The notes under the pieces are model-generated. The model saw only the letters and a program-made list of their open reading frames with translations. It did no database searches and was not told where the DNA came from. From Dehalococcoidia bacterium (GTDB taxonomy: Bacteria; Chloroflexota; Dehalococcoidia; UBA2979), in the NCBI GenBank assembly GCA_965249675.1, contig OZ252250.1, positions 300,941 to 364,940 of the forward strand: 64,000 nt of DNA, written 5' to 3'. The position numbers were made by a program, and so were the translations under genes. How positions within the stretch are numbered: position 1 is the stretch's first letter; every line of letters starts with the position of its first letter. Below, piece by piece: positions 498 to 57,236 of the stretch.

Positions 498-1036
498 GAC
501 GAGACTCAGCCGGCCGGGCCCGGCTCGTGTGCTGTGGTCGTTGGCGCGGCATCGCCTCAGAAGTGGTCACGGCGCCTCCCAGGCAAGACTCGTTGAACAG
601 CTGCGAGCTTAGCCCGGATCCACCGGAGCCTGACGCGATGTCGTTCGGGAACGGGCAACAGGTGCCCTCTGCAAGCGGAATACTGGTGGGTGCATCGACG
701 AAGCCGATGCATTTGCGGGCTGGCGGAACGCCCCCGTGTTCCCGGCTACATCGTCAAGGCGCCATCAACCCCGGGCACGCTTCTGCGCAGCTTCGGGTGA
801 GGGGCACGTCTGCGGCGATAGCTGCCGTACAACGCCCCAGGGAGCTGTCGCTCGAGCGTGCTCGTCTCCGCCTTCCCGCATCGCGTAGCTCGCGCTGCGC
901 CGCAGCGCTCCCTGGCCCCGGGACGTCTGACAAGGGCTGCACGTAGGCGACCGACGGGGGAAAATGCCCGGAACGGCGGTCTGACCGGAGATGTCGGCAG
1001 ATGACCGGCGGAAGACGGACAGCAGGAAGCGAAACC

Positions 1037-4000: not shown

Positions 4001-4099
4001 CGGTTGGAGGCGCTGACGCTCGAGCAGGTTGCGGCGGCCGCTCGCCTCTACCTGCCGGCCGACCGCTACGTGCGGGTGGTGCTCCTCCCGGAGAACTGA
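1037..4099 (+). CDS. M16 family zinc peptidase (insulinase/PqqL-like, two-module), membrane-anchored or secreted with a Thr/Pro/Ala linker
   Basis: 1032-aa ORF. Likely start is ATG 1037 (MNQTLALPVALVLTAVVLVAVL hydrophobic anchor, AGGAAG upstream). It carries the HFVEH inverted zincin motif (HxxEH) followed by NGTERF. The length fits paired active plus inactive M16 halves. Confidence 0.9.
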   Translation: MNQTLALPVALVLTAVVLVAVLGYGRGFAPGADPAPAPTAATPTPTATATPTPTATPTATPTATAMPTATATPTATATPTAMATPTATATRTATATPRPETAPAGALPLDPAVVRGTLTNGLTYYIRHNEEPPGRAHLSLVVRAGSVLEEEEQRGLAHFVEHMAFNGTERFAKQQIVEYLESIGSTFGADLNAATGYDETIYFLEIPTDDPEILETAFQILSDWAYASSFSPDEVELERSVVLEEWRRSQGVASRWRDSLFPLLFGDSRYSDRSPIGLPEVIETAPVEQLRAYYERWYRPDLMAVVAVGDFDLELIEAKVAEHFAPPPEGAATQPRAAVAPATSRPSFGIPEHDNPRIQVFTDPEAPASQLTVVLKVSPEAGRDQAAFRRGIVESLAFQALNARLFERGQVTDPPYLASSAGSGPFVEPVDIVDFSLLVEQDGVERGIAALLEEIQRARQHGFTESELAREKANLLRSVERAYTQRDQVNSVVLAGSYRHHFFRGTSVPGIEAAWALYQELLPTISLPEIDDVAVSWTEPGNTVVLVLRPEGPDSTPDEELARAVESQIEAASSLSVEPYVDTFDDVPLLATLPTAGSITREASIESIDAVEWTLSNGITVIAKQTDFKNDEVLFSAYSPGGHSLVADPDHVSALFASALADGSGVGLHDSVTLNKLLTGKTVSLSPYIGELFEGLSGSASPQDLESLFQLITLYATEPRFDPTYFSTFETRLRSAAETRSSQPDAVLYDTANTILSQGHFRQRPLTLEMLEELSLERAEAIYADRFADLGDATFIFAGAFDWDELRSLTTTYLASLPTIGRTEEWRDPGIDPPPGLEDHVVRKGIEPRSTTILVFTGEMEWSRENALALDVAGEILGIRLRERVREELGGSYSISVSVDSSPHPDPEYHVAIIFGSDPSRADELADEVAAEVDWLRLAGEQEYLDTVKELLRTSREEAVRENGFWLSQVRAALQRGESLEEITRFDERLEALTLEQVAAAARLYLPADRYVRVVLLPEN
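1208..1325 (+). repeat. In-frame 18-bp tandem repeat ACGGCGACGCCCACCGCC, six full copies plus a partial seventh
   Basis: Read directly. Units at 1208, 1226, 1244, 1262, 1280, 1298 and 1316, with 0-1 mismatch each. They encode (TATPTA)n within the M16 peptidase linker. Confidence 0.9.
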
Positions 4100-7901: not shown

Positions 7902-7961
7902 AGTTCGGCCGCGGCCGGGGGCTGCCCCGTCGGGCCCGTAGGCGGGTTGCCTGATCTGCGG

Positions 7962-8120
7962 CTACCCGACTGACCGCTGCCCGACTGACCGCTGCCCGAC
8001 TGACCGCTGCCCGACTGGGCCGCTGCCCGACTGACCGCTGCCCGACTGGCCGCTGCCCGACTGGCCGCTGCCCGACTGACCGCTGCCCGACTGGCCGCTG
8101 CCCGACTGGCCGCTGCCCGA
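7962..8120. repeat. 15-bp minisatellite CTGCCCGACTG(A/G)CCG, about 10.5 contiguous copies (one 16-bp unit)
   Basis: Read directly. Units start at 7962, 7977, 7992, 8007 (16 bp), 8023, 8038, 8053, 8068, 8083 and 8098, with a partial unit at 8113. The array lies between the convergent rhodanese and GNAT genes and runs into the GNAT stop codon (8121-8123). Confidence 0.95.
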
Positions 8121-8579
8121 TCAGAAGTCGAGATCCATCCAGCGATGGTCGATCCCGGCGTCGAGGAAGATCGGTCCGCGCGCCCGGTAGCCGAGCCGTT
8201 CGTAGAAGCCGATCGCATGCTCCTGTGCGGCCAGGGTGATGCCGGGGCGACCGAGTTCACGGGCACGCCCGGCCAGCCAGTCCATCACCGCCCGCCCGGC
8301 GCCGGTACGGCGCTCGGACGCGAGCACGGCGACGCGGCCGACGTGCGCACGCTCTTCGGGCGGGTGATCGAGCAGGAGCCGGCCCGTTGCGACGGGCTCT
8401 ACGGCGCGGCTGACGAGCACGTGGACGGCGTCGGTGACGGTCCGGGGATCTCCGTCGAAGCGGTCGATCTCCTCTTCCTCCGGCACCCCCTGCTCGTCGA
8501 TGAAGACCAGCCGACGAATGCCGAGCGCCAGCTCCATCTGCTGCACGGTCTCGATCGGCCGGGCCTGGAAGCCGCTCAT
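8121..8579 (-). CDS. GNAT family N-acetyltransferase
   Basis: 152 aa. It has the acetyl-CoA binding core RVAVLASERRTGAGRAVMDWL (Q/RxxGxG/A) and a FYERLGY tail. Confidence 0.85.
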   Translation of the reverse strand: MSGFQARPIETVQQMELALGIRRLVFIDEQGVPEEEEIDRFDGDPRTVTDAVHVLVSRAVEPVATGRLLLDHPPEERAHVGRVAVLASERRTGAGRAVMDWLAGRARELGRPGITLAAQEHAIGFYERLGYRARGPIFLDAGIDHRWMDLDF

Positions 8580-33028: not shown

Positions 33029-33889
33029 ATGCGAACGAAGCTCGTAGAACTCAGCGATGCGGTGAAGATGATCCGCGACGGCGACGAGGTCGTAATGAGT
33101 TCGGGCTTCACCGACAGCCCGATGGCACTCCTCCGTGAGATCGTGCGATCAGATGTGCAGGACCTGAGGGTCGTCGGCGTCGTCGGCGGATCCATCAACC
33201 TCGACTTCCTGGTCGGCAGCGGCCAGACCTCGGTGATGGACTGCTGCTCGATCGGCTTTGACCCCTTCCGCCGTGAGGCCCCGAACTTCGACCGCTATCT
33301 CAGAGAAGGTCGCATCTACTCGATGGACAACACCTGAGGCGTCCACTACTCAATGATCCAGGCTGGATCAATGGGCGTCCCCTACGTGCCGGTGAGAGGC
33401 CTTGCCGGGACAGATGTCTTCGAGCGACGCGACGACATGATCATGGCAGAAGACCCCTTCGGTTCGGGCGAGGTCAACGTCGTCGCCCGCGCACAGAACC
33501 CCGACATCGCGCTCCTGCACGCCCGCAAGGCCGACCCGGCAGGCAACGCCCTGCTGCGCCCGCACGGCGAGGACGTGATGATCGCCCAGGCCTCGCGCCG
33601 CGTGATCATCAGCGCCGAAGAGATCGTGCCCCAGGTGACAGCCGACGACATCGGCGGGAACTACATCTCGGCGATCAACGTCACGGCGGTCGTGCATGCC
33701 CCCTGTGGCGCCCACCCGACCGGCGTCGACGGCCGCTACGAGATGGACGGCGAGCACATCGAGGAATACATCCGGGCCTCGGCGGACGACGACTCGTTCC
33801 GCGCCTACCTTGAGCGCTACGTGATCGGCAAGAGCGAGGCGGAGTACCAGGCGCTCGTGTCGGGACGCGTGCTCGAGCCCGCCCGTTGA
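33029..33889 (+). pseudogene. CoA-transferase subunit A (glutaconate/3-oxoacid CoA-transferase family I alpha) interrupted by an in-frame TGA at 33335-33337
   Basis: ORFs 33029-33337 and 33353-33889 share one frame. The joined sequence ...GRIYSMDNT*GVHYSMIQAGSMGVPYVPVRGLAGTDV... is continuous with the family alpha subunit. It may be a true nonsense mutation, a split gene or a recoding site. Confidence 0.75.
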
Positions 33890-34638
33890 GCCCGACCGCG
33901 GGCCCACCGTGCAGTACGGAGGAGCTCCTGATCGTGCTGATGTCGCGAGACATCCGCGATTGGGAGACCTGCGCCTGCGGCGCTCTGTCGATGATCCCGG
34001 CGGCCTCGATGCTCCTCGCCGAGGAGACCCACGCGCCCCAGATCGAGGTGATCATCCTTGGCAGCCGGGACCTCGATCGCAATCTCGGCAAGGACATCCA
34101 CTTCCTCGCCCAGCGCGGGAAGCTCGATCTCTTCTACCACTCGGCCGTGCAATTCGATGCCGAGGGGAACTTCAACCTTCACGTGCTCGGCGATCCCGAC
34201 TCACCGGATCGCCGGCTACCCGGGGGATACGGCTCGGGGCTCCTCTCCTACATGTCGAGGCGGGTCTTCTTCTTCCGCACCGAGCACTCGACGCGCACCT
34301 TTGTGCCGAAGGTCGACTTCATCTCCGGTGCGGGGTTGACCCCTCCTGAGATCAAGCGCGCCTCAGAACCCTTCCGCGTCTACACGACGATGGCGATCAT
34401 GACCTTTGATCGGCAGCGCGCTCGCTACGAGGTGGAGTCGATCCACCAGGGATTCACGGCCGACGACGTGCGCGCCAACACCGGCTTCGATGTGGACATC
34501 CCCGAGGCCTGCCCGGTCACCCCGCCGCCGTCAGAGGCCGAACTTGAGACGCTGCGCACGACGGTGCGCCAGCGCATGATCGACACCGGCACCTACCCGG
34601 AGTGGGCCACGGCGGCGCTCCAGCCGGTGGCCAGCTGA
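33886..34638 (+). CDS. CoA-transferase subunit B (family I beta)
   Basis: 250 aa. Its start overlaps the subunit A stop. HSAVQFDAEGNFNLHVLG (the family's GN.N segment), GGYGSG, and a C-terminal part typical of GctB-like subunits. Confidence 0.85.
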   Translation: MSPTAGPPCSTEELLIVLMSRDIRDWETCACGALSMIPAASMLLAEETHAPQIEVIILGSRDLDRNLGKDIHFLAQRGKLDLFYHSAVQFDAEGNFNLHVLGDPDSPDRRLPGGYGSGLLSYMSRRVFFFRTEHSTRTFVPKVDFISGAGLTPPEIKRASEPFRVYTTMAIMTFDRQRARYEVESIHQGFTADDVRANTGFDVDIPEACPVTPPPSEAELETLRTTVRQRMIDTGTYPEWATAALQPVAS

Positions 34639-47181: not shown

Positions 47182-48090
47182 ATGGGGAACCGAGTGCGCG
47201 CGCCGCGATGGTGGTCGGTGAGGAGCGTCGACGACGTGATCGGCCGGCTCCCAGTGATCGACGCTTGAACCCTTGACGTGCAAGCCGTAGACCTCCCGAT
47301 CGTTCTCACGATGGTGCTTCTGAATAGGCCGGAGTATCGCGCCGTTCTCGACGGATTGGTCGAATTCCGTCGCAGTGTCGCCGTCCACCTTGAAGACAAC
47401 GCTCTCGACGCCCCTCTGGAGAATCTCCCTTATCTCTATCAGCGGTGGTGCTTGCTTGAAGTTGTCGACTCCGCGACGCGCGTGGCACGGGAACGAGGCT
47501 TCCGGATCGTCGAGGAGCGCCTGTCCCGCCGGCGGCAGGCGGCGCTGTTTATCGAAGTGCTCCCCGCAGGGCAGCCCCTCCTCAGGTACCGACACGACGA
47601 GTCAGGCACGGAGGCCACGCTTACGCATGAGCGGACATTCGGTCGCACCGGGTCGCCCCGTTCGGTGAGCTTCCAACAGCGGCCCGACATAGTGCTCGAA
47701 GTTCGAGCGCCTGACTCCGCGCCACGGCTCTTCGTGTTCGACCCCAAGTACAAACTCGACAGCGAAGACCGTGATGACGAAGAAGGGTTGACTGGGCGTC
47801 CCAAGAAGTCCGATATCGACAAGTGCACGCGTACCGCGACGCAATACGCGAAGAGGACGGTGAGCGAGTGATTGAGTACGCGGCGATCCTCTATCCGGGC
47901 CCCAGCCGGCACTTCGGTGACGACGTTGCGGCGCTTGAGGCGGTCGCGGGGCGTGAGACCGAACTCCAGGTTGAGCTCGACTCGGTACCTGAGCGGCGCC
48001 TTGAAGACAACTACGCGGTGAGGGCCGCACCCTGCACGATTGCGTCGCCGATCGACTTCGCCTCTACCCAGGGCGATCCAGCGCACGACC
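47182..48090 (+). pseudogene. DUF2357-like PD-(D/E)xK restriction-type nuclease remnant (N-terminally truncated, with an in-frame TGA and a 1-nt deletion)
   Basis: LNRPEYRAVL..., LYQRWCLLEVV and QQRPDIVLEV...RLFVFDPKYKLD...KKSDIDK, then a frame break at 47823/47824 before (M)HAYRDAIRE...EYAAILYPG. In-frame TGA at 47266-47268. The natural 3-prime end is unclear. Confidence 0.55.
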
Positions 48091-48094
48091 GGTC

Positions 48095-48859
48095 TCAGAC
48101 CTTCTGCTGCCACTGCGCCCGCGCGAGCACAAGTCCGTCGACGGCGACGGCCCCTGCCAGCCTGAGCGCCCTTGCGACCTCGAGCATGTCGTGGCCCGTC
48201 GTGAACACATCGTCAATGACCAGGACCCGCTGGGAGACGGCCGCAGGGTCAGGTATCTGGAGGGCGGCGCGAAGCTGTTCACTCGCGATGTCGTGGCGCC
48301 GCTTCCACCCTTTCCCGCTCATTGTGTCGGTCTCCGCAGTCTTCACGATCAGCGGACGATCCCGACGAAAGGGCCAACCGCCCGGATCCTCAATCACGGC
48401 GTGTTGCACGATTCGATCGATCTGGCTCCACGAACGGTGCGCGCCAGGACCCGTGAAGGCGGGCATCGGAATCAGGGCGTCGTAGTCGTGGAACTCGTCT
48501 GCGTTCTCCTCCAGATAGCCGAGAATCACGCGCGCGAGGATGGGTGCCCATACCGTTTTCTCGTCGTACTTATACCGGCGAATGACGCGACGCATGGGGT
48601 CGGAGTCGAGTGCGACTGCGCGAACCCGCCCGTACCAGCGCTCGTCGGGCGTCCAGTTGCAGATTGGGTTGCCGCAGGGGGCATGAGGCTCCGCCAGCGG
48701 GTGGCTACAGAGTGCACAGCGCGCGAGCGGGGGCAGGTGCGTGTATCTGGACGCGCAGGTGAAGCAGATTTCGACCGAGCCCGATCTTCGGTAGGCGCAG
48801 TGCTGGCACTGGCCGAAGCCTGGAGGCTGTGGGCTGAGACTGTCGAACCGCTGTGGCAC
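48095..48859 (-). CDS. ComF-family phosphoribosyltransferase with an N-terminal double zinc ribbon
   Basis: ORF trimmed to GTG 48859, 15 nt after the dprA-like stop. CQHC..CFTC...CALC..CGNPIC Cys pairs. RRVIRRYKYDEK. PRPP loop VLVIDDVFTTGHDM. Confidence 0.8.
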   Translation of the reverse strand: MPQRFDSLSPQPPGFGQCQHCAYRRSGSVEICFTCASRYTHLPPLARCALCSHPLAEPHAPCGNPICNWTPDERWYGRVRAVALDSDPMRRVIRRYKYDEKTVWAPILARVILGYLEENADEFHDYDALIPMPAFTGPGAHRSWSQIDRIVQHAVIEDPGGWPFRRDRPLIVKTAETDTMSGKGWKRRHDIASEQLRAALQIPDPAAVSQRVLVIDDVFTTGHDMLEVARALRLAGAVAVDGLVLARAQWQQKV

Positions 48860-48873
48860 GGCGGGGCGTCTTG

Positions 48874-49824
48874 TCAGTCGCCCAAGCTGAAGGCGAGCTG
48901 CTGACGTCCATCTGTGATCTGCGCAATGCGCTCGGGCGTGCGAAGACGTTCCAGCACGTCGTCGAGGTCGGACACCTCGATGGCCCGCTGCGGGTAGCGG
49001 CGTCGGTAGCCCTGTGCCCAAGCCTGCCTGGTAACGAGCGATCTGAGCAGGAATGCGTACTTGCCATGCTCCAGCGCGAGGCGCGCCTGCATCTTCGCGC
49101 CTGACGTGCTGCCCGCCTCGATCACGACTGTCCCCTGGCTGATGCCGGACATCGTGACGTTCCGCTTCGGGAAGTTGTAGCTCGCTGGCGGGCTATCCGG
49201 CCAGAACTGCGAGACGATGGCACCCGTGGCGGCTATCCGCTCGGCCAGGCCTCGGTTCTCAGGAGGGTAGGTCCGCGTGATCCCGGAGCCGACCACGGCG
49301 ATGGTCCGGCCGCCGGCGTCGAGGGTGGCCGTGTGTGCCGTAGTGTCGATCCCGCGGGCCAGTCCGGAGACCACGGTGACACCAGCCGCGGTGAGCATCG
49401 TCGCCATCCTCTGCGCACGGGAGAGGCCTTCTGCCGACGCCTGGCGCGTACCGACGACGGCTACTGATCGCGCGTCCGATGCGCGCAGCGAGCCACGGAC
49501 GAAGAGGAACGGCGGAAGGTTGAAGACAAGCTCGAGGTTCGCTGGGTACTGCTCGTCGAGCACGCTGATTAGCCGCGCCCCTGCTTGCTCCGCGCGCTCG
49601 ATCTGGTCGTCGACCCACGCAAGACGCTCGTCTTCGGTCTCGCGCGACGAATTGATGAGTCTTCGCGCTTTCGATGCGACATCCGACCGTTCGACGGGTG
49701 TTCCCGCAAGGAGGTGACCGATGCCACCTTCGGCGAGCGCCTCGCGAGCAAGGAGGTGCCAGTCAATGCCCTTGATCGCGCAGAGGGAGAGCAGTTGCCG
49801 GACGTCTCGGGAGTCACTCATCAT
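48874..49824 (-). CDS. DprA/Smf-family (SLOG Rossmann) protein
   Basis: ORF trimmed to ATG 49824 (GGAGGTGG upstream). YPANLELVFNLPPFLFVRGSL, VAVVGTRQAS, VVSGLARGIDTTAH, FPKRNVTMSGISQGTVVIEAGSTSGA. Confidence 0.85.
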   Translation of the reverse strand: MMSDSRDVRQLLSLCAIKGIDWHLLAREALAEGGIGHLLAGTPVERSDVASKARRLINSSRETEDERLAWVDDQIERAEQAGARLISVLDEQYPANLELVFNLPPFLFVRGSLRASDARSVAVVGTRQASAEGLSRAQRMATMLTAAGVTVVSGLARGIDTTAHTATLDAGGRTIAVVGSGITRTYPPENRGLAERIAATGAIVSQFWPDSPPASYNFPKRNVTMSGISQGTVVIEAGSTSGAKMQARLALEHGKYAFLLRSLVTRQAWAQGYRRRYPQRAIEVSDLDDVLERLRTPERIAQITDGRQQLAFSLGD

Positions 49825-49879
49825 GAGTACCCGCCCACCTCCAGAGAACGACCGTTCCAAACTTAGATGCGAACACCTA

Positions 49880-50194
49880 TTAGTTGCTCCACGCGCGACC
49901 CCGAAGCAGTCCTTCGACTTCGGCTGTGAGGGGATGGACTTCTCCGGTGGCGACATCGAGAGCCTTGAGGACGCCAAGGCTGGGCTGATCACCCACTCTC
50001 CAATCAGGTTCGGGAGCCAGTTCGTTGAAGAAGACGTGGCGCCGATCCTCCCAGGTCGGCTCCTTGTCGAGGCCCGGTCCCCACCAACTGTCGCCAGCCT
50101 GGTACAGGTGCGGATACAGGCCATCGCCCTCCTGAGCCTGGACAGCCAGCAGAACGGGTATCGCTGCCAGCGATGCGAGGAGTCCGCGCGTCAT
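49880..50194 (-). CDS. Small hypothetical secreted protein (first gene of the dprA-like/comF-like operon)
   Basis: 104 aa. Signal peptide MTRGLLASLAAIPVLLAVQAQ. Coding-like codon usage. Its stop lies 55 nt upstream of the dprA-like start. No homology recognised. Confidence 0.45.
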   Translation of the reverse strand: MTRGLLASLAAIPVLLAVQAQEGDGLYPHLYQAGDSWWGPGLDKEPTWEDRRHVFFNELAPEPDWRVGDQPSLGVLKALDVATGEVHPLTAEVEGLLRGRAWSN

Positions 50195-50199
50195 GAAGC

Positions 50200-51291
50200 G
50201 AGCATAGCTGCGGCGAAGTCGAGGTTCCAGACCTCGTCTCGCTCCCGGACTTCACGAGCCGGGAGACCCTCTCAATGGGCTCCCTCGTGGTGGACGAGAG
50301 AGGCGCTCAGGTGGTGCGGCGCATGTTCACGCTGCACCCGCAGGGTCACTCGACCGCTTGCTGGTATCAGCGGCGAACGCCGAGGGACCGCGAACGAGAC
50401 TGGGCCGGCCGTTCACTCGCGGAGCTGTCGAGGAGATCCTGCGGAATCGCGTGTACACCGGAGTCTTGATCTGGTCGCCCGGAACCGCGGACGAGGATGT
50501 GGTCGATGGTGCTCACCAAGCGATTGTCGATGCGGAGGTGTTTCGCGACGTGGCAGCGGTACGACGCGAGCGGCGGACCTAGACCGGACCGAGGGGGCGC
50601 AAGGGCACAGTGCGCACCTACCCGCTCACCCGGCGCGCGTCCCGCTACTACTGCGGCGGTTCCCTTTTTCGGCGACACGGGCAGCCGGACGAACAAGCGC
50701 CGGATGCGCCACGCCGCCGGTTCGTGTGTCTATCGCCAGTCCTTTAGCTCAGACCTCCTTGAGCGGCAGGCCCGCGAGTTGGCGGTGGAGCGGCCGAGAC
50801 TGCCACCCGACAGCATCAAGCGCATCGCCATCGCCGCGACGAGAGCACCGGAGGGCAGCCATGCTGTGAAAGTGCAACGGCTGCAGAGCGCACTCGAGAA
50901 GTTGCGACAGCTATACACCTGGGACGACATCGACAAGGCCGAACACCGCAAGCGGCGCGGTGAAATTGAGCGTCAGTTGAAGGAGGTGTCCCCGAACCCA
51001 CCGGTCGAGCTCAGGAAGTTCGAGCGGGGGATGGAGTACCTCTCGCCGCTCGGCCAGACGTGGGATGACGCGCCGCTGGAGGAACGTCGCGAGATCGTCA
51101 ATCTGGTGTTTGAGGAGGTACGGATCGGAGCCAGAGGCATCCAACACGTCGAGCTTCAGGAGCCCGACCGGTCGCTCCTCAGCGCACGTGGTCGGATTGG
51201 TCGGGGAGGCCGGAGTCTCCCCGACAAACTCGACCACCTGTGGAGCCCGTCGGAAGTCACCATCGGGGGCGTTGACCGGGCGGTCGGATAG
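50200..51291 (+). pseudogene. Large serine recombinase, 3-prime fragment only (recombinase domain, zinc ribbon and coiled coil), frameshifted; the catalytic resolvase domain is missing
   Basis: LVVDERGAQVVRRMF..GHST, then a frame break, then LLVSAANAEGPRTRLGRPFTRGAVEEILRNRVYTG...AIVDAEVF. This is followed by a degenerate zinc ribbon (RYYCGGSLF in an alternate frame) and the coiled coil LQSALEKLRQLYTWDDIDKAEHRKRRGEIERQL. Confidence 0.7.
50539..51214 (+). repeat. 676-bp direct repeat, copy 1 (recombinase 3-prime end plus the 17-nt tRNA-Pro core)
   Basis: Matches 56501-57176 at a constant offset of 5962 bp. One mismatch was noticed (A/G within GCAAGGGCAC(A/G)GTG). The match ends exactly after TGGTCGGGGAGGCCGGA. 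Confidence 0.9.
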
Positions 51292-51671
51292 CGCGGGTAC
51301 AGGCTGGCAGACGTGAGAGGTCCGGGGTTCGTTGCATTCTGCACGCCCGGACCGCAATGGCAGGCACAAGTGGTGGTCTCGAGGATCGCAGGTTCGACCC
51401 TGGTGGCCCGACATCGAGCTTTGGTCCTGAGTCGGCTACTCGCGGAACGATCGCGATGAGCGGTCGGTCATGGTGGGTCGCCGGAACGCTGCCTGAAATG
51501 TTCATCAGGATAGACAAGTCCTACGGCGATGACACTTGCGTGTTCCGCGTCTAAATGGCCGCACAATCTGGACATCGGAGCGTCCCATAGTCTAATCACT
51601 GGACCCTCGGCGCTCTTCGGTCTATATTTCCTTGAAGAATTAGACTGGTTGTAGGCAGGGGACATCGTGAG

Positions 51672-52835
51672 ATGGACAGCGAACTGTTCACGAAACCATC
51701 CGGACGGCTGGTTGAAGTCGAGCGTGACCCCCCCTTGCCGACGTACGTCGCCTACGTCCCCGACCCCCTCCCTCCGGAATCCGAAGGTGGAGCGATCGCA
51801 GCCGTGGCTCGGGAGCTGGGAGAGGCCAGCCTTGCGCTCGGCCAGCTGACCGGCATCGGTGAGTTCTTCCCGAACCCCGATCTGCTCGTGCGCTCTTACC
51901 TGCGGCGCGAGGCCGTCGCAAGCTCCCGCATCGAAGGCACGATGGCTTCATTCTCCGACATCGTCTCCTTCGAAGCCGGCATACGTCCTCCGCCCGGGAG
52001 CGACGCGAAAGATGTCCTCAACTACATTACGGCTCTCAATGGCGGCCTCCGGGCTAGCCCGGACGAGGTGTTTTCGCTCGATTTCGTCCGTTCGCTCCAC
52101 AGGCAGCTGATGACGGGGGCGCGCGGTGAAGCGTTCAGCAATCCCGGGGAGTTCCGCTTCATCCAGAACCATGTCGGCATCCTGAACGGGATCGAGAACG
52201 CCACCTACGTACCACCGCCACCCGCGGAGATGCACACGGCCCTCGATCAGCTCCTTGGGTACGTGAATGCGGCGAAGCCGGGAACACCGCCGTTGGTCGA
52301 GGTCGCGTGGATGCACTACCAGTTCGAGGCGGTTCACCCCTTCCTCGACGGCAACGGCCGCGTGGGCCGCCTCCTCATCCCACTTCTCCTAGCCGCGCGC
52401 CACAAGGTCAGCCATCCGCTGCTCTATCTCAGCCCCTACTTCGAGCGACGACGGGTCGACTACTACCGGCTCTTACTCGCGGTCAGTTCGACTTCGGCCT
52501 GGGAGGAGTGGCTTCGTTTCTTCCTCGTCGGAGTGGCCGAGCAGGCGCGAGAGGCCATCTCCGCGGCACGTCAGGTGCTCGCGCTCCGAGAAGATTGGAG
52601 GGAGCAGCTCACGGCCGCTGGCGCCACTCCGTCGGCCCACCGCCTTGCCGAGCTCGTCTGCGAGTACGTGGCGGTGACGCCCAAGCTCGTCGAGCTGCGC
52701 CTCGACGTAGCTCGACAGACCGCGTACAACGCGATCCACGTGCTTGTGGACGTAGGCATCCTGGAGCCGGTGCCGGTAGGCCAGCGAGGGAGCGTCTACA
52801 TCGCCCATCGACTCGTGAGAGTCCTCAGTCCGTAG
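51672..52835 (+). CDS. Fic family protein (AMPylase-type), class II auto-inhibited, with a C-terminal winged helix
   Basis: 387 aa. Active site HPFLDGNGRVGR. The N-terminal inhibitory motif SSRIEG fits (S/T)xxxE(G/N). Appears intact. Confidence 0.9.
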   Translation: MDSELFTKPSGRLVEVERDPPLPTYVAYVPDPLPPESEGGAIAAVARELGEASLALGQLTGIGEFFPNPDLLVRSYLRREAVASSRIEGTMASFSDIVSFEAGIRPPPGSDAKDVLNYITALNGGLRASPDEVFSLDFVRSLHRQLMTGARGEAFSNPGEFRFIQNHVGILNGIENATYVPPPPAEMHTALDQLLGYVNAAKPGTPPLVEVAWMHYQFEAVHPFLDGNGRVGRLLIPLLLAARHKVSHPLLYLSPYFERRRVDYYRLLLAVSSTSAWEEWLRFFLVGVAEQAREAISAARQVLALREDWREQLTAAGATPSAHRLAELVCEYVAVTPKLVELRLDVARQTAYNAIHVLVDVGILEPVPVGQRGSVYIAHRLVRVLSP

Positions 52836-52875
52836 ACCATATGGCGTGACCGAGAGTTCAAGAACTGCTACTCGT

Positions 52876-53201
52876 CTAGAGTGTGGCAAGACCGAGGTTC
52901 ACGAGCCGGAACGCCATCGCTGACTGGCTCACGCCGTAGCGGCGAGCTAGGTTCCCAACAGCTTCGTCACCAGCGGCGTCGATACCCAGCTCGCCAACGT
53001 CGGCAAGCAGCCAGTCCCTCGGCATCAGGAGCTCTGCCGCGAACATGTGCGCCTGGATCTCCTCCCGGTCGCTTCCCGCAGCAGCCTTTTGATCTCGCCG
53101 GAAACACGAAGCGCCTGTCGACAAAGGTCTGCGGCCCATGCAGACAAAAGATGCCCGAGTTCATGCGCGATCGTGAATCGCTGGCGCACGCCGCTCTGTG
53201 C
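52876..53201 (-). pseudogene. ImmA/IrrE-family zinc metallopeptidase remnant (3-prime part; the 5-prime part continues at 55700-55780 across the IS21 insertion), also frameshifted
   Basis: RQRFTIAHELGHLL (HExxH) abuts the IS21 end. The downstream part EEIQAHMFAAELLMP is in another frame. Joining the IS flanks restores ...LPDVNSAQSGVRQRFTIAHELGH. Confidence 0.7.
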
Positions 53202-53266
53202 TGGGAATGACAACCCGTTCTGGCCCCACCTTGATCCTCTGAACTGGCCCCACCCCCGGGATGTGG

Positions 53267-54049
53267 TCAGCTGGTCGGAGCACCTCCCTTCGAGGCGGTG
53301 GTGACCCGCAGGCGATAGGACTCGCTGCCGGTCTCGATGATGTGGGCGCGGAACGTGAGCCGGTCGACGACCGCGGCGGCGAGGCGGGGGTCGGCGAAGG
53401 TGCGGCCCCACTCCGAGAACGGCGCGTTGGAGGCGACTGCCACCGAGGCCCGCTCCTCGCGCTCGGTGAGGACCTGGAAGAGCAGTTCGGCTCCGCGCGG
53501 GTCGAGGTGGACGTAGCCGAACTCGTCGAGGCAGAGCAGGTCGAGCCGGCCGTAGCGGGCGACCAGGCGTGAGAGCGTGCGCTCGTCGGCGGCTTCGGCC
53601 AGTTCGTTCACGAGCTGTGCCGCCGTCGTGTAGCGCACCCGCAGCCCGCGCTGGCAGGCGGCCATGCCGAGCCCGATCAGCAGGTGCGACTTGCCGGTGC
53701 CGCTGTCTCCGAGCAGCACGACCGGCTGGCCCGAGGCGATCCACTCGCCGCGCTCGAGCGTGGCGAGCATGGTCGGGTCGACCGTGGGGGCCGCCGCCAG
53801 GTCGAAGTCGGCGAGGTGCTTGAGCCGGGGGAAACGGGCCTCGTGGATGCGGCGCTCACGGCGGCGCGCATCGCGGTCGTCGAGCTCGGATTGGAGCACC
53901 TCGGCGAGGTAGGCGAGATGGGTGAGCCGGTCGCGCAGCGCGGCCTCGGCGAGCGCGCCGGCCTGCTGACGGACCGTGGGGAGGTGCAGCGCACGGCTGG
54001 TCGCCTCGACCTGAAGCGCCGCCGCCTGCTCGGTCACAGGTGTGCTCAT
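53267..54049 (-). CDS. istB: IS21 helper ATPase IstB
   Basis: 260 aa. Walker A LLGDSGTGKSHL and Walker B LLCLDEFGY. Its start overlaps the istA stop. Confidence 0.9.
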   Translation of the reverse strand: MSTPVTEQAAALQVEATSRALHLPTVRQQAGALAEAALRDRLTHLAYLAEVLQSELDDRDARRRERRIHEARFPRLKHLADFDLAAAPTVDPTMLATLERGEWIASGQPVVLLGDSGTGKSHLLIGLGMAACQRGLRVRYTTAAQLVNELAEAADERTLSRLVARYGRLDLLCLDEFGYVHLDPRGAELLFQVLTEREERASVAVASNAPFSEWGRTFADPRLAAAVVDRLTFRAHIIETGSESYRLRVTTASKGGAPTS

Positions 54050-55575
54050 CGCGTGCTCGCGGCGAGCAGCGCGTCGTAGCCGGCCAGGCTCGGCGCCGGG
54101 CGTTCGAAGCGCCTGAGCGCCGGCCGCTCCACAACGGCGGTCTCGCGGCGGCCGTCGGCGACGCGGCGCGCCTCGATGGCGATCAGCGCCGGGTCCACCG
54201 CGCCCAGCTGCTCCACCGCATCGAGTGCTGCGTGCACCGAGGCGGCGGGGAGGTGGCGGTGCAATAGCAGCACCTCGATGAGCGCCCGCGTCCCGGCGCC
54301 GTCACCGAGCTTGCGGCGGGCACGCTGCCAGAAGCGTTCGTGCGCGGCGGTGAAGCCACCGCCTGAGCGCGCCTGCGCGAGCGCGATCGAGCCGGGCAGC
54401 GCCCCGGGCTTGCGGGACAGCACCTCGAGGAAGTGGTCCAGCACGAGGACCTCGGATCCCTTGTGCGCGCTGCGCTCGTGGCGGGCAACCACCCGGCCCG
54501 CGACGAGGGCGGTCACGGTCCCGCCGCCCAGGCGGACGTCCACCGTGCGGCCCGCGAACGCCGCGGGGACCGAGTAGCGCGAGCCACGCACGGAGATGCG
54601 CGCCTTGCGGTCGGCCTTCGCTTGCAGTGCGACCGTGGGGTCGAAGGGTTCGGCGGGGAGGGGCCGCAGCGCGGGCCGCTCTGCCTCCGCCGTCTGGCCG
54701 ACGGTGGCGAGCCGGCCAGCGATGTGGCGGGCTCCGTCTGCGCGGTCGGCCGCCTCGAGCAGCGCGTTCAGCTCGGCCAGGCTCTCGACGCGCGGGACCG
54801 GCACGAGGTGGCGCCGGCGGAAGCGCCCGACCTCGCCCTCCACGCCCCCCTTCTCGTGCGCGCCCGCGATGCCGGGCTCGCAGAAGAAGCTGTCGAAGCC
54901 GTAGTGCGAGCGCAGTGCGGTGAAGCGGTCGCTCTCGATGCGGTCGCGCCCCAGGAGCACGCGCGTGACGGCCGAGCTCAGATTGTCGTAGCGGATCCGC
55001 CGCGGCACCCCGCCGAGGCGCTCGAGGGCGAGCGTGTGGCCCTCGAGGAACGCCTCCTGGCCCTCGCCCGGGAAGCACACGTGGACCGCCCGCCCCGAGT
55101 GCGAGAGCCGCAGCACGAACATCGACAGCTCGGTCAGCACGCCGTCCAGCCAGACGCTGACCCCGCCGAAGTCGACCTCCGCCTCCTCGCCCGGCGGATG
55201 CAACTGGGGGATCGTCACGACTGAGCGACCGGACTCCAGCTCGCGGCGCACGCGGCCGACGTAGGCGCGCACCGTCGCCTCGGCGACCGTCGCGCCGTAC
55301 TCATCGACGAGGCGCTCCCAGACCCGCCGCGCCGTGTGCCGCTGCTTGCGCGGCGCGCTCAGGTCGGCGACGAGCCACTCCCGGATGATCTCTACGTACG
55401 GACCGAGCTTCGGCGCCGCTCGAGACGCCTGCTTGCGTTGTGGCGGCAGCGCCGACTGCAGCGCCTGCCGTACCGTGCGCCGGTGCACGTGGTGGCGGCG
55501 CGCCAGCTCGCGTATGGGCAGCCCCTCCTCTCGCCATGCCCGTCGGATATCCTCGAACAACTCCACCCTCGACAC
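54046..55575 (-). CDS. istA: IS21 transposase IstA
   Basis: 509 aa. N-terminal HTH (IRELARRHHVHRRTVRQAL) and a DDE integrase core (EVDFG...YDNL...). Confidence 0.9.
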   Translation of the reverse strand: MSRVELFEDIRRAWREEGLPIRELARRHHVHRRTVRQALQSALPPQRKQASRAAPKLGPYVEIIREWLVADLSAPRKQRHTARRVWERLVDEYGATVAEATVRAYVGRVRRELESGRSVVTIPQLHPPGEEAEVDFGGVSVWLDGVLTELSMFVLRLSHSGRAVHVCFPGEGQEAFLEGHTLALERLGGVPRRIRYDNLSSAVTRVLLGRDRIESDRFTALRSHYGFDSFFCEPGIAGAHEKGGVEGEVGRFRRRHLVPVPRVESLAELNALLEAADRADGARHIAGRLATVGQTAEAERPALRPLPAEPFDPTVALQAKADRKARISVRGSRYSVPAAFAGRTVDVRLGGGTVTALVAGRVVARHERSAHKGSEVLVLDHFLEVLSRKPGALPGSIALAQARSGGGFTAAHERFWQRARRKLGDGAGTRALIEVLLLHRHLPAASVHAALDAVEQLGAVDPALIAIEARRVADGRRETAVVERPALRRFERPAPSLAGYDALLAASTR

Positions 55576-55710
55576 ACTCCTCTTCTTTCGCTCGGGGAGG
55601 TCTCAGTTGCCCGAGCGTAGCTGCTGGATGGGTCGGGGGTGGGGCCAGTTCAGAGGATCAAAACGGCCCAGATGGGGCCAAATCAGAGTAGCGTTCCCAC
55701 TGTGCGGAGT

Positions 55711-56498
55711 TCACGTCGGGCAGCGGCGGTGGCGGGCTTGCAGGTCGTCGGACAACTCCACACACACCCGGGCACGCCTACCTTCAAGCAGCTCCGCCAG
55801 GCTCGTCGACGTCATCTGGGCGCCACGGTCTGAGTGCAGCGTCAACTGCTGCGGCGAGATCCCGTTGCGGTCGCAGGCGGTGCCCACCAGCGTCCTGGCA
55901 ACCTCGGTCGACTCCGCCGGATCGACCGCCCAGGCGACGATCTTGCGGCTGAAGATGTCGATCACTACGTAGAGGTAGAACCAGCTGCGGTGGTGAGGGC
56001 CGCGGAGGCGCGAGATGTCCCACGACCAGACCTCGTTCGGGCCGCTCGCCTGCACCTGGGGTGCATGGTGGGTCGTGCGTCGGTGACCGCGACGCCGTTC
56101 TCTGACCAGGCCGCGTTCCTCGAGGATGCGGTACATCTGGCGGATCGAGCAGACGTACGAGCCCTCGTCCAGCAGCTGGTAGTAGACCTGGGCGGGCGCC
56201 TGGTCACGAAAGCGTGGTGAGCACAGCAGCTCGGCGATGTGATCGCGCAGCTGGTCGGGGATGCGTGACGGCTGCGGCTGGTGCTGCTCGCGCGGCTTCG
56301 CCTGTGACGGCCGCCTGGCGGCGGCTGCGGTCGGTCCGCTCTGAGTATCCGAAGACCCGACAGGCGCGGGCACGGCCAACCCGCTGGGCCCATGCGTCCA
56401 TAGCGGCGAGCATCTGCGCCCGCCAGTTGGCGTATGCCTGTGCTGGCCGTTCGGCTCGTGTCGGCGCTACCCGTTCTGGCTGCTCGGTCGTTGCGGCA
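55711..56498 (-). mobile_element. IS3-family element fragment (HTH plus rve transposase, frameshifted and 3-prime truncated)
   Basis: ACRVFGYSERT HTH, then LRDHIAELLCSPRFRDQAPAQVYYQLLDEGSYVCSIRQMYRIL, PNEVWSWDISRL, LYVVIDIFSRKIVAWAV and LHSDRGAQMTS. The family sequence stops after LAELLEG. A possible TG... terminus lies at 56498. Confidence 0.7.
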
Positions 56499-56500
56499 TA

Positions 56501-57176
56501 TGTTTCGCGACGTGGCAGCGGTACGACGCGAGCGGCGGACCTAGACCGGACCGAGGGGGCGCAAGGGCACGGTGCGCACCTACCCGCTCACCCGGCGCGC
56601 GTCCCGCTACTACTGCGGCGGTTCCCTTTTTCGGCGACACGGGCAGCCGGACGAACAAGCGCCGGATGCGCCACGCCGCCGGTTCGTGTGTCTATCGCCA
56701 GTCCTTTAGCTCAGACCTCCTTGAGCGGCAGGCCCGCGAGTTGGCGGTGGAGCGGCCGAGACTGCCACCCGACAGCATCAAGCGCATCGCCATCGCCGCG
56801 ACGAGAGCACCGGAGGGCAGCCATGCTGTGAAAGTGCAACGGCTGCAGAGCGCACTCGAGAAGTTGCGACAGCTATACACCTGGGACGACATCGACAAGG
56901 CCGAACACCGCAAGCGGCGCGGTGAAATTGAGCGTCAGTTGAAGGAGGTGTCCCCGAACCCACCGGTCGAGCTCAGGAAGTTCGAGCGGGGGATGGAGTA
57001 CCTCTCGCCGCTCGGCCAGACGTGGGATGACGCGCCGCTGGAGGAACGTCGCGAGATCGTCAATCTGGTGTTTGAGGAGGTACGGATCGGAGCCAGAGGC
57101 ATCCAACACGTCGAGCTTCAGGAGCCCGACCGGTCGCTCCTCAGCGCACGTGGTCGGATTGGTCGGGGAGGCCGGA
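56501..57176 (+). repeat. 676-bp direct repeat, copy 2 (recombinase 3-prime fragment running into tRNA-Pro)
   Basis: Matches 50539-51214. ORF 56666-57181 repeats the recombinase C-terminus and stops at a TGA inside the tRNA T-loop. The left edge abuts the IS3 fragment. Confidence 0.9.
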
Positions 57177-57236
57177 TTTGAACCGACGACCACCTGTCCC
57201 CCAGACAGGTGCGCTACCAGACTGCGCCACTCCCCG
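57160..57236 (-). tRNA. tRNA-Pro (anticodon GGG), 77 nt with encoded CCA
   Basis: The minus strand reads CGGGGAG TG GCGC AGTCTGGTA GCGC A CCTGT CTGGGGG ACAGG TGGTC GTCGG TTCAAAT CCGGC CTCCCCG A CCA. All four stems pair, with one G-U pair in the T stem. U33 and G37 are present. Confidence 0.85.

What the first reader, a model, noticed from the sequence alone, without database searches (positions are those of the whole stretch)
50539..57176. Two 676-bp direct repeats 5962 bp apart, each ending in the tRNA-Pro 3-prime core; the recombinase C-terminus depends on what lies beyond the core
50539-51214 and 56501-57176 are essentially identical (one mismatch noticed). They comprise the last ~220 codons of the serine recombinase plus the 17-nt core. 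Copy 1 is contiguous with more recombinase sequence on its left, while copy 2 begins abruptly at the end of an IS3 fragment. Beyond the core, the copy 1 reading frame runs on for 26 codons (...GGRSLPDK...AVG*). In copy 2 it stops after one more codon at a TGA inside the tRNA T-loop (...GGRI*). Repeats of this length and identity are recombinogenic and could delete or amplify the intervening Fic/ImmA/IS segment. The pattern fits tandem integration of sibling elements, or Campbell-type integration through the shared segment.
Basis: seen in the sequence. Interest (0 to 1): 0.65.

Follow-up and report, generated by a model that had tools for sequence, protein, structure and literature searches.

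The report
Decayed tandem integrative elements at tRNA-Pro
The two 676-bp repeats are real: they are the dead tail ends of a serine-recombinase gene left by two mobile elements that inserted one behind the other at a tRNA-Pro gene, and gene conversion keeps them alike. This is a genomic fossil, but it points to a rarely described recombinase family that inserts into tRNA genes.

Summary
Window 50539-51214 and 56501-57176 are 676-bp direct repeats with one mismatch. Each ends in the 17 nt that form the 3' end of tRNA-Pro(GGG). The same layout occurs in four independent assemblies and in short-read unitigs, so it is not an assembly artefact.

Neither copy encodes a working recombinase. Copy 1 covers codons 184-503 only, with no catalytic domain, three frameshifts and a TAG. 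Copy 2 covers codons 279-503 and is fused to an internal IS3 fragment.

Intact relatives (503 aa) sit at tRNA-Pro, one at this same locus in a sister strain. All end ...GRGGRI*, with the stop supplied by the tRNA T-loop. The copy-1 junction is a perfect 9-bp inverted repeat around an 8-nt spacer. This is an attP-type site, and an independent intact relative has the same architecture.

Best reading: a decayed tandem array of two sibling integrative elements. The repeat length was set by a deletion. The near-identity comes from gene conversion: copies differ at 7-10 sites in other strains, and strain-specific alleles are shared by both copies.

The segment between the repeats carries a SoFic defence gene and a strain-specific IS21. 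Serine-recombinase integration into tRNA genes, with the att site inside the recombinase gene, is rare but has precedents.

The parts
50255..51214 (+). Recombinase pseudogene, copy 1. It corresponds to codons 184-503 of intact 503-aa relatives and has no resolvase catalytic domain. Lesions: +1 at about 50277, -1 after 50353, TAG at 50581-50583, +1 at about 50662-50664.
   Evidence: tblastn of P0001; DNA alignment with the intact genes of L004 and L011; Pfam PF07508 only.
50539..51214 (+). Direct repeat copy 1 (676 bp).
   Evidence: 1 mismatch to copy 2.
51200..51225 (.). attP-type site: GTCGGGGAG-GCCGGAGT-CTCCCCGAC, a perfect 9-bp inverted repeat with an 8-nt spacer. The predicted crossover dinucleotide is GG at 51212-51213. 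The left arm is the tRNA 3' end copy (51198-51214).
   Evidence: Read. Only 3 such palindromes occur in 64 kb, about 1 expected by chance. The intact relative L012 has the same architecture. Function is inferred.
51215..51671 (+). P' arm and leader of the tRNA-proximal element, upstream of the Fic gene. In copy 1 the dead recombinase frame runs 25 codons into it.
   Evidence: L002 keeps this segment only from 51228 onward.
51672..52835 (+). Intact Fic-domain gene of the SoFic type (387 aa, motif HPFLDGNGRVGR). It is the cargo between the repeats.
   Evidence: Pfam Fic_N + Fic; PADLOC SoFic E 8e-102; translation.
52876..53139 (-). Fragment of an M78 (ImmA/IrrE-like) peptidase gene.
   Evidence: PF06114 positions 67-122 of 123 only; matches model positions 236-296 of a 377-position NCBIfam model.
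53202..55699 (-). IS21-family insertion sequence, 2498 bp. IstA is at 54046-55575 and IstB at 53267-54049. Ends are TGGGAA...TTCCCA. The 6-bp target duplication CTGTGC lies at 53196-53201 and 55700-55705. Present in this strain only.
   Evidence: Absent, with an exact empty site, in L001, L008 and L009 and in runs X4 and X6 (joint 53195->55700).
55711..56500 (-). Internal fragment of an IS3-family transposase gene, truncated at both ends.
   Evidence: NCBIfam transpos_IS3 positions 95-300 of 369; Pfam rve + HTH_32.
56501..57176 (+). Direct repeat copy 2. This is a recombinase pseudogene fragment (codons 279-503) with the same +1 frameshift and TAG. It ends ...GRGGRI* inside the tRNA (attR-type junction).
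57160..57236 (-). tRNA-Pro(GGG), intact. Its 3' 17 nt are supplied by the element side.
   Evidence: ARAGORN; Rfam RF00005 62.9 bits.

Best explanation
The locus is a decayed tandem array of two closely related integrative elements at the 3' end of tRNA-Pro(GGG). Both elements belong to a family whose large serine recombinase gene runs, on the opposite strand, into the tRNA gene, so the element's att site lies inside the last codons of the recombinase gene.

Inferred integration chemistry: the crossover is at a GG dinucleotide at the T-stem/T-loop border. The element supplies a copy of the tRNA 3' end, so the tRNA stays intact. The recombinase ORF then stops at a TGA in the T-loop (...GRGGRI*).

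Inferred history: a second, sibling element entered at the tRNA-proximal junction of the first. This left an attP-type junction (51200-25) between the two elements and a new attR-type junction at the tRNA. Both elements then decayed. The distal recombinase lost codons 1-183 and picked up frameshifts. In the proximal element, everything between an ImmA-like gene and recombinase codon 279 was lost in a deletion involving an inserted IS3.

The 676-bp repeat length is therefore an accident of that deletion. The repeat's near-identity in this strain is due to gene conversion, mostly copy 2 into copy 1. Nothing at the locus can now move by itself. The repeats flank a 5.3-kb segment carrying a SoFic defence gene and, in this strain, a recent IS21 insertion.

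Shown: the anatomy, the pseudogene state, the family habit of ending inside a tRNA, and the gene conversion. Inferred: the crossover position, the order of integration and the mode of entry.
For: 1. Repeat and core coordinates are confirmed.

2. Intact relatives P0001, P0003 and P0004 (503-504 aa, resolvase + recombinase domains) all end GRGGRI. L004 has P0001 next to the same tRNA-Pro and the same flanking genes in a sister strain, at the end of a relaxase/TraG/primase element. L006/L011 has P0003 abutting tRNA-Pro in a different flanking context.

3. More distant relatives run into tRNA-Gly (L015), end in tRNA antisense sequence (L014), or continue past it without a tRNA being called (L010, L013). 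Among 116 full-length representatives, 32 carry T-loop-antisense peptide motifs in the last 45 residues, against about 10 expected by chance.

4. The copy-1 junction is a perfect 9-bp inverted repeat with an 8-nt spacer. Three occur in 64 kb, about 1 expected. The tRNA side keeps CCGAC in the same register. L012, an intact 547-aa relative with no tRNA on its contig, has the same TGGTCGGGGAG-ACTGGAGT-CTCC... architecture, and its ORF continues about 40 codons beyond the palindrome (stop at 2208).

5. Copy 1 covers codons 184-503 and copy 2 covers codons 279-503. The indels and the TAG are mapped. The IS3 piece is internal, model positions 95-300 of 369.

6. The two-copy layout is present in four assemblies and in short-read unitigs at about 2x depth.

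7. Gene conversion. Within-strain differences are 1 (window), 10 (L001), 7 (L008) and 9 (L009). Polarised with L004 and L006, L001 copy 1 keeps ancestral states at five sites where the window's copy 1 carries copy-2 derived alleles. Two window-specific derived alleles (50581, 51059) are present in both copies.
Against: 1. All eight copies in four strains share the +1 frameshift at about 50663 and differ by at most 12 of 676 positions, whereas the nearest intact gene differs at 76-80. Independent functional siblings would not share a frameshift unless conversion spread it early. A duplication made after the gene died explains this more simply.

2. Serine integrases normally recombine only attP with attB. 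Entry into an attR-type junction is an assumption.

3. No third tRNA fragment marks the far end of the distal element. The only candidate is a 12/17 match at 47212-47228. No attL was found for the intact element of L002 + L004 either.

4. The region left of copy 1 differs among strains, so the distal 'element' cannot be reconstructed.

5. No circular form or attP junction of an intact close relative was observed.
Confidence: 0.6

Rival explanations
1. Campbell-type (RecA) entry. A circular sibling element, or a defective derivative carrying the recombinase 3' end with its attP junction and the Fic gene, recombined by homology within the resident recombinase gene rather than at the att site. 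This gives the same rec-attP-Fic...rec-attR order.
For: The product is structurally identical to the observed layout. Homologous exchange between these two sequences demonstrably happens, as gene conversion. It needs no active recombinase, which fits the shared frameshift and the dead genes.
Against: It still requires a circular sibling with an authentic attP junction. No crossover point can be identified, because conversion has erased copy-specific markers. The family clearly uses site-specific entry at tRNAs.
Confidence: 0.17
2. Post-mortem segmental duplication. A single decayed element already had the frameshifted recombinase 3' end next to the tRNA. Unequal sister-chromatid exchange or an IS-mediated rearrangement then duplicated the 676 bp.
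For: All eight copies share the +1 frameshift. Paralogues are as close to each other as orthologues are, 1-12 differences against 76-80 to the nearest intact gene. IS3 and IS21 sequences lie between the repeats.
Against: A random duplication end would not create a perfect 9-bp palindrome exactly where the tRNA identity stops. It would also not reproduce the architecture seen in the independent intact relative L012. The repeat ends to the base at the tRNA-derived 17-mer. The IS3 piece is an internal fragment without termini, so it cannot have transposed the segment.
Confidence: 0.15
3. Assembly artefact: collapse or expansion of a repeat.
For: None found. Repeats of 676 bp can mislead short-read assemblers in general.
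Against: There are four independent assemblies with the same order, including contigs of 3.7 Mb (L009) and 7.0 Mb (L008, '56x' in its name), and they carry copy-specific differences. The short-read unitig of exactly 676 bp has about 2x the depth of its flanks in three runs.
Confidence: 0.02

Closest known systems
Tandem arrays of genomic islands at tRNA/tmRNA genes (Islander/TIGER; 125 tandems among 3919 islands, PMC4383910; SXT/R391 tandem arrays as cited in PMC3218068)
   Same: There is an intact tRNA gene plus a displaced copy of its 3' end in direct orientation. Two elements lie head to tail and the junction between them is attP-like. Later decay and IS insertions are also typical.
   Different: Those arrays are built by tyrosine integrases. 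Here the associated gene is a large serine recombinase, and both copies are dead fragments. The 'repeat' is 676 bp because the att site lies inside the recombinase gene.
Streptococcal ICEs/IMEs integrated in rumA, whose attR lies inside the serine integrase gene (Ambroset et al. 2016, PMC4701971)
   Same: The att site lies within the 3' end of a serine integrase gene. Integrated and excised forms therefore encode proteins with different length and C-terminus.
   Different: There the target is a protein-coding gene that gets its own 3' end exchanged. Here the partner is a tRNA gene on the opposite strand that is restored intact and supplies the stop codon. Sequence identity of the recombinase to annotated phage or plasmid serine recombinases is at most 27%.
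Serine-recombinase elements in tRNA genes: Mycobacterium AICEs in tRNA-Leu and phage phiRSM in tRNA-Ser (Ghinet et al. 2011, PMC3218068, which calls this 'rare')
   Same: A serine recombinase is associated with site-specific insertion at the 3' end of a tRNA gene in a high-GC bacterium. The intact sister element (L004) carries conjugation and relaxase genes.
   Different: The target is tRNA-Pro(GGG), with tRNA-Gly in the distant branch. ORF/att overlap is not described for the Mycobacterium AICEs or phiRSM in the text I read. Relatedness to the Mycobacterium recombinases was not tested.
Myxophage Mx8 intP (attP inside a tyrosine integrase gene; cited in PMC4701971). Also mycobacteriophage integration-dependent immunity (Broussard et al. 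2013), which I cite from memory only.
   Same: Integration changes the C-terminus of a protein encoded across attP, giving state-dependent activity or stability.
   Different: The enzyme family is different. No functional consequence has been shown for the family studied here. The attP-form tails are not conserved between the window and L012, which argues for a by-product.

Membership tests
Large serine recombinase (integrase) | N-terminal resolvase catalytic domain (PF00239) with the nucleophilic serine | tested here: not met
   Homology to intact relatives starts at codon 184 in copy 1 and codon 279 in copy 2. Pfam finds only PF07508 in the conceptual translation. Intact relatives P0001, P0003 and P0004 do have PF00239 + PF07508.
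Large serine recombinase (integrase) | Recombinase domain (PF07508) followed by a Cys-rich zinc ribbon and a coiled-coil region, in one open frame | tested here: not met
   PF07508 is detected (E 4.4e-10) and the CxxC...C stretch is visible. However, the frame is broken by +1, -1 and +1 indels and a TAG. It is a pseudogene of the family, not a functional member.
Serine-integrase att site | A short central crossover dinucleotide flanked by imperfect inverted repeats; attP and attB share little beyond it | tested here: inconclusive
   Copy-1 junction: 9-bp perfect inverted repeat, 8-nt spacer, central GG. The tRNA side keeps CCGAC in register. L012 has the same layout. Recombination activity and the crossover position cannot be tested with these tools.
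tDNA genomic island / tandem array (Islander signature) | Intact tDNA plus displaced 3' tDNA fragment(s) in the same orientation, with an integrase gene for each island | tested here: inconclusive
   An intact tRNA-Pro and one exact 17-nt fragment lie in direct orientation. Each unit has a recombinase remnant but no intact integrase. The far-end fragment is at best 12/17 (47212-47228).
IS21 family insertion sequence | istA transposase plus istB helper ATPase, terminal TG...CA inverted ends, short target duplication | tested here: met
   NCBIfam transpos_IS21 E 1.7e-73 and IS21_help_AAA E 3.6e-76. Ends are TGGGAA/TTCCCA with a 6-bp duplication CTGTGC, and the empty site is seen in L001 and in reads.
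IS3 family insertion sequence | Complete orfA-orfB transposase with terminal inverted repeats | tested here: not met
   Only model positions 95-300 of 369 are present. There is no OrfA and no C-terminal part, so it is an internal fragment.
SoFic (Fic-domain anti-phage defence gene) | Single Fic_N + Fic protein matching the SoFic model, with the HPFx[D/E]GNGR motif | tested here: met
   PADLOC SoFic E 8.3e-102 over 354 of 361 positions. The NCBIfam SoFic model scores 150 bits, below its 550 cut-off. Motif HPFLDGNGRVGR is present. Defence activity was not tested.

The most novel reading that the evidence does not exclude
The window's fossils belong to a large, essentially undescribed clade of large serine recombinases that target the dyad-symmetric T-arm or anticodon arm of tRNA genes and carry attP inside their own last codons.

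Two consequences would follow:
(i) The tRNA dictates the enzyme's C-terminus and stop codon in the integrated state, while a longer, different tail is made from the excised circle. This could act as a built-in switch of activity or stability.
(ii) The element-supplied half-site equals the tRNA half-site, so the attR junction still works as a target. This would allow repeated accretion of elements and defence cargo at one tRNA.
Probability: 0.3. Interest if true: 0.6.

Novelty: new variant of a known kind. Interest (0 to 1): 0.42.

Why it matters
For this genome the locus is an inert scar, but it explains a variable defence island (Shosta, SoFic, PD-(D/E)XK nuclease, IS elements) next to tRNA-Pro. 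It also gives a clear example of gene conversion making an old repeat look recent.

More broadly, textbooks and island-finding software assume that tRNA genes are targeted by tyrosine integrases. A sizeable serine-recombinase clade that ends inside tRNA genes would be missed by such tools. It would provide new, short, highly conserved attB sites (tRNA genes) for serine-integrase genome engineering. It would also offer a natural test of whether the state-dependent C-terminus regulates integration versus excision.

Tried and rejected
- Third copy of the core or a sibling left end: none in the window at 3 or fewer mismatches near the island. Only a 12/17 match at 47212-47228. No long repeat between the left parts of the two units.
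- attL of the intact sister element: no core copy or palindrome partner anywhere in L002 + L004, about 20 kb to the left of the tRNA. The same holds for L011 and L015 within the DNA held.
Logan unitigs of the window locus cannot show a deletion product, because the repeat is longer than the reads.
- Idea that copy 2 was originally L004-like and only partly converted: differences to L004 are spread evenly over the 676 bp, with no near-identical block.
- Idea that the rve fragment is the element-borne rve gene of L004: unrelated (E 0.026). It is an IS3 OrfB fragment.
- IS terminus at 56500: rejected, because the IS3 is internally truncated.
- Organism name: cluster look-up returned no names. The only titled relative is a Chloroflexota MAG that shares just the recombinase and tRNA. 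The host of the window remains an unnamed high-GC (about 69%) bacterium whose closest assemblies include a contig of 7.0 Mb.
- Annotated phages and plasmids: nothing closer than 27% identity.
- One DOI look-up (the TIGER 2020 paper) was not held, so I cite no figure for tRNA use by serine integrases from it.

Full report
**1. The observation**

A self-comparison of 48-60 kb finds one long direct repeat at a start-to-start distance of 5962 bp. Base-by-base comparison gives 676 matching positions, 50539-51214 against 56501-57176, with one mismatch (50609 A / 56571 G). Similarity falls to random on both sides.

ARAGORN and Rfam place an intact tRNA-Pro(GGG) at 57160-57236 on the minus strand. The last 17 nt of each repeat, TGGTCGGGGAGGCCGGA, are the reverse complement of the tRNA's CCA end, discriminator, 3' acceptor strand, 3' T-stem strand and first T-loop base. 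This 17-mer occurs exactly twice in the window.

Copy 1 reads ...GRGGRSLPDK...AVG* and copy 2 reads ...GRGGRI*, with the TGA in the T-loop.

**2. It is not an assembly artefact**

Exact-protein look-ups recovered the same locus from other assemblies.
- L001/L003 is 99.7% identical over the aligned regions.
- L008 comes from a 7.0-Mb contig and L009 from a 3.7-Mb contig. Both are about 98-99% identical to the window over the aligned regions.
- All three have both copies in the same order.

In Logan short-read unitigs of three runs, the repeat is a separate unitig of exactly 676 bp at roughly twice the depth of its unique neighbours: 3.9 vs 2, 8.4 vs about 4, and 15.7 vs about 9.

**3. What the repeated sequence is**

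The conceptual translation matches only the Pfam 'Recombinase' domain (PF07508) of large serine recombinases.

A protein search found intact relatives: P0001 (503 aa, 72% identical), P0003 and P0004. Each has the resolvase catalytic domain plus PF07508.

Against P0001, copy 1 covers residues 184-503 and copy 2 covers residues 279-503. Nothing in the window encodes residues 1-183.

A DNA alignment with the intact genes of L004 and L011 shows four lesions in copy 1:
- a +1 insertion at about 50277;
- a -1 deletion after 50353;
- a TGG-to-TAG change at 50581-83;
- a +1 insertion at about 50662-64.

The last two lie inside the repeat and are also present in copy 2. Both copies are therefore dead fragments, so the locus encodes no recombinase whose C-terminus could vary.

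**4. The neighbours**

Between the repeats lie, in order:
- a 457-bp leader;
- an intact Fic gene matching the SoFic defence model, with an intact Fic motif;
- a fragment of an M78/ImmA-like gene;
- a complete IS21-family element, 53202-55699, with a 6-bp target duplication. It is absent, with an exact empty site, from L001, L008, L009 and two read sets;
- an internal fragment of an IS3-family transposase gene, model positions 95-300 of 369.

The start of copy 2 at 56501 thus joins the interior of an IS3 to the interior of the recombinase gene. This is a deletion scar, not an IS terminus. The 676-bp length is simply what that deletion left.

To the left of copy 1 the sequence differs between strains. 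In the window it carries a Shosta-like pair and a PD-(D/E)XK nuclease gene.

**5. The family habit**

In L004, a sister strain whose flanks are 98-99% identical, P0001 sits at the same tRNA-Pro next to the same F420H2-quinone-reductase gene. It lies at the right end of an element with TraG-like, primase and relaxase genes. In L006/L011, a Chloroflexota MAG, P0003 abuts tRNA-Pro in a different flanking context. All three intact proteins end GRGGRI, which is the copy-2 form.

More distant relatives (40-48% identity) behave in the same way:
- L015's ORF ends inside tRNA-Gly(TCC).
- L014 breaks off in tRNA antisense sequence.
- L010 and L013 read through about 45 nt of tRNA-Gly-like sequence up to the anticodon loop, then diverge with no tRNA called.
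- L012 carries an intact 547-aa gene whose 3' end reads TGGTCGGGGAG-ACTGGAGT-CTCCGG... and then continues for about 40 more codons to its stop, with no tRNA on the contig.

In an exhaustive profile search, 32 of 116 full-length representatives carry T-loop-antisense peptide motifs in the last 45 residues, against about 10 expected by chance. About 22 of these are unmistakable tRNA-antisense tails.

Ending inside a tRNA gene is therefore a trait of the clade.

**6. The junctions**

The copy-1 junction reads GTCGGGGAG-GCCGGAGT-CTCCCCGAC. This is a perfect 9-bp inverted repeat around an 8-nt spacer. Three such palindromes exist in the 64 kb, with about one expected by chance, and this one sits exactly where identity with the tRNA stops.

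The tRNA junction reads GTCGGGGAG-GCCGGATT-TGAACCGAC and keeps CCGAC in the same register.

This is the layout expected of serine-recombinase att sites, based on established knowledge of the phiC31 and Bxb1 class: a central dinucleotide flanked by imperfect inverted repeats. I therefore infer three things:
- The copy-1 junction is attP-type (P + P').
- The copy-2 junction is attR-type (P + B').
- The crossover is at the central GG, 51212-13 and 57174-75.

On this reading, the 17-nt identity is the shared left half-site that rebuilds the tRNA, not a tyrosine-type overlap region. These points are inferred, not shown.

**7. History**

An attP-type junction inside a chromosome is what a tandem array leaves between its two members. 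The simplest account has three steps. One element integrated at tRNA-Pro. A sibling then entered at the tRNA-proximal junction, either site-specifically or by homologous recombination within the recombinase gene. Both elements then decayed.

The main difficulty is that all eight copies in four strains share the +1 frameshift and differ by at most 12 positions, whereas the nearest intact gene differs at 76-80. Either gene conversion spread the frameshift early, or the duplication was made after the gene had died.

Against a random post-mortem duplication stand the palindrome, its recurrence in L012, and the base-exact end of the repeat at the tRNA-derived sequence.

I put the tandem-array reading at about 0.6 and Campbell-type entry of a sibling at about 0.17. 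Post-mortem duplication is at about 0.15 and an artefact at about 0.02.

**8. Gene conversion**

Within-strain differences between the copies are 1 in the window, 10 in L001, 7 in L008 and 9 in L009.

When the sites are polarised with L004 and L006:
- L001 copy 1 keeps the ancestral base at five sites (50643, 50783, 50795, 50946, 50961). At these sites the window's copy 1 carries the derived bases of copy 2.
- The copy-1-specific A at 50609 survives in both L001 and the window.
- Two window-specific derived alleles (50581, which creates the TAG, and 51059) are present in both window copies.

It is not evidence of a recent duplication. It does show that the repeats recombine. No deletion or amplification product could be looked for with unitig data.

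**9. Comparison with what is known**

- Tandem islands at tRNA genes are common for tyrosine integrases (PMC4383910). That paper states that serine-family integrases were not known to target tRNA genes.
- Ghinet et al. (PMC3218068) report eight Mycobacterium AICE serine recombinases at tRNA-Leu and cite phage phiRSM at tRNA-Ser. They call such cases rare.
- Att sites inside a serine integrase gene, with a different C-terminus after excision, are described for streptococcal rumA elements. For a tyrosine integrase the example is Mx8 (PMC4701971).

I did not find the combination seen here in the literature I searched: the att site lies inside the recombinase 3' end, antisense to a tRNA that is restored and supplies the stop codon. 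I rate it a new variant of a known kind.

The attP-form tails of the window and L012 share only the two residues dictated by the palindrome. A functional role for the tail is therefore doubtful.

**10. Verdict**

The repeat is real and correctly described. The tandem-element idea is the best explanation, but the locus is a fossil: both recombinase copies are dead, the repeat length was set by a deletion, and its identity is maintained by gene conversion.

Interest is moderate. It lies mainly in the recombinase clade and its tRNA-embedded att site, and in the defence cargo gathered at this tRNA.

Noticed in passing
window 48095-50124 (minus strand); also 47278-47871: A DprA-like gene matches the Shosta defence protein ShosA (E 1.5e-68). 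The adjacent phosphoribosyltransferase/ComF-like gene weakly matches ShosT (E 5e-5). A PD-(D/E)XK (PDDEXK_7) gene lies next to them. Together with SoFic, this makes the tRNA-Pro region a defence island.
   Followed up: partly
window 53202-55699: The IS21-family element (istA/istB, 2498 bp, 6-bp duplication CTGTGC) is a strain-specific recent insertion. It is absent from L001, L008 and L009 and from runs X4 and X6, and present in X1 and X2. Very high unitig depth (60-1300x, against flanks of mostly 2-18x) shows many copies in these metagenomes.
   Followed up: yes
window 47212-47228 and 47290: TGGTCGGTGAGGAGCGT matches the tRNA core at 12/17 (11 of the first 12). It sits 62 bp before 47290, where the window, L002 and L008/L009 stop being alike. 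It may be the decayed, displaced tRNA end of the first integration. L002 and L008 share 164 bp more beyond this point.
   Followed up: partly
L002 9557-11279 (= window 51228-52950): In another strain type the Fic segment is 99.65% identical but has different DNA on both sides and no recombinase remnant. Its left end lies 13 nt inside the P' arm, just where a core would have been. The 11 kb around it has 54-65% GC, which marks it as foreign. The same strain type carries the intact element (L004) at the tRNA.
   Followed up: partly
window 50526-50538 vs 56487-56500: Just left of the strict repeat, GTCGATGCGG and GTCGTTGCGG match at 9/10, followed by 3-4 unlike bases. The deletion junction may therefore lie about 14 nt further left, with a scrambled patch or microhomology.
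   Followed up: no
window 51188-51204 / 57150-57166; also L004 and L011: TGGTCGG occurs twice, 10 bp apart (GTGGTCGGATTGGTCGGGG), at the end of the recombinase gene. It encodes the repeated GR-I-GR motif and is conserved in intact relatives. It could be a duplicated protein-binding motif of the P half-site.
   Followed up: no
L005 (ends 6 nt after the core) and L007 (ends 18 nt after the core): Two short-read contigs carrying intact relatives break off within the tRNA just past the core. This is what an assembly graph does when the sequence continues in two ways, for example integrated and excised forms or several occupied sites.
   Followed up: no
proteins P0020-P0168 (representative search): Many serine-recombinase representatives end in peptides that are plainly antisense translations of tRNA genes. 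Examples are ...DGIRTRDLLRDRQAC...ADSNRRP......RGFEPPTSS... and ...RGLEPPxPAPEAGALSD. This suggests a broad tRNA-targeting clade.
   Followed up: partly
window 34522-34617 (minus strand): ARAGORN calls a 96-nt 'tRNA-Asp' with the impossible anticodon ATC, inside a well-supported + strand ORF (33814-34638). Rfam was not run on this region. It is probably a false positive.
   Followed up: no
window 1113-1346 and 7933-8139: There are two coding-type tandem repeat tracts. One has 12/18-nt periods rich in ACG/CCC (Thr/Pro/Ala-like) inside the 947-4099 ORF. The other has a 15-nt period (GCTGCCCGACTGACC).
   Followed up: no
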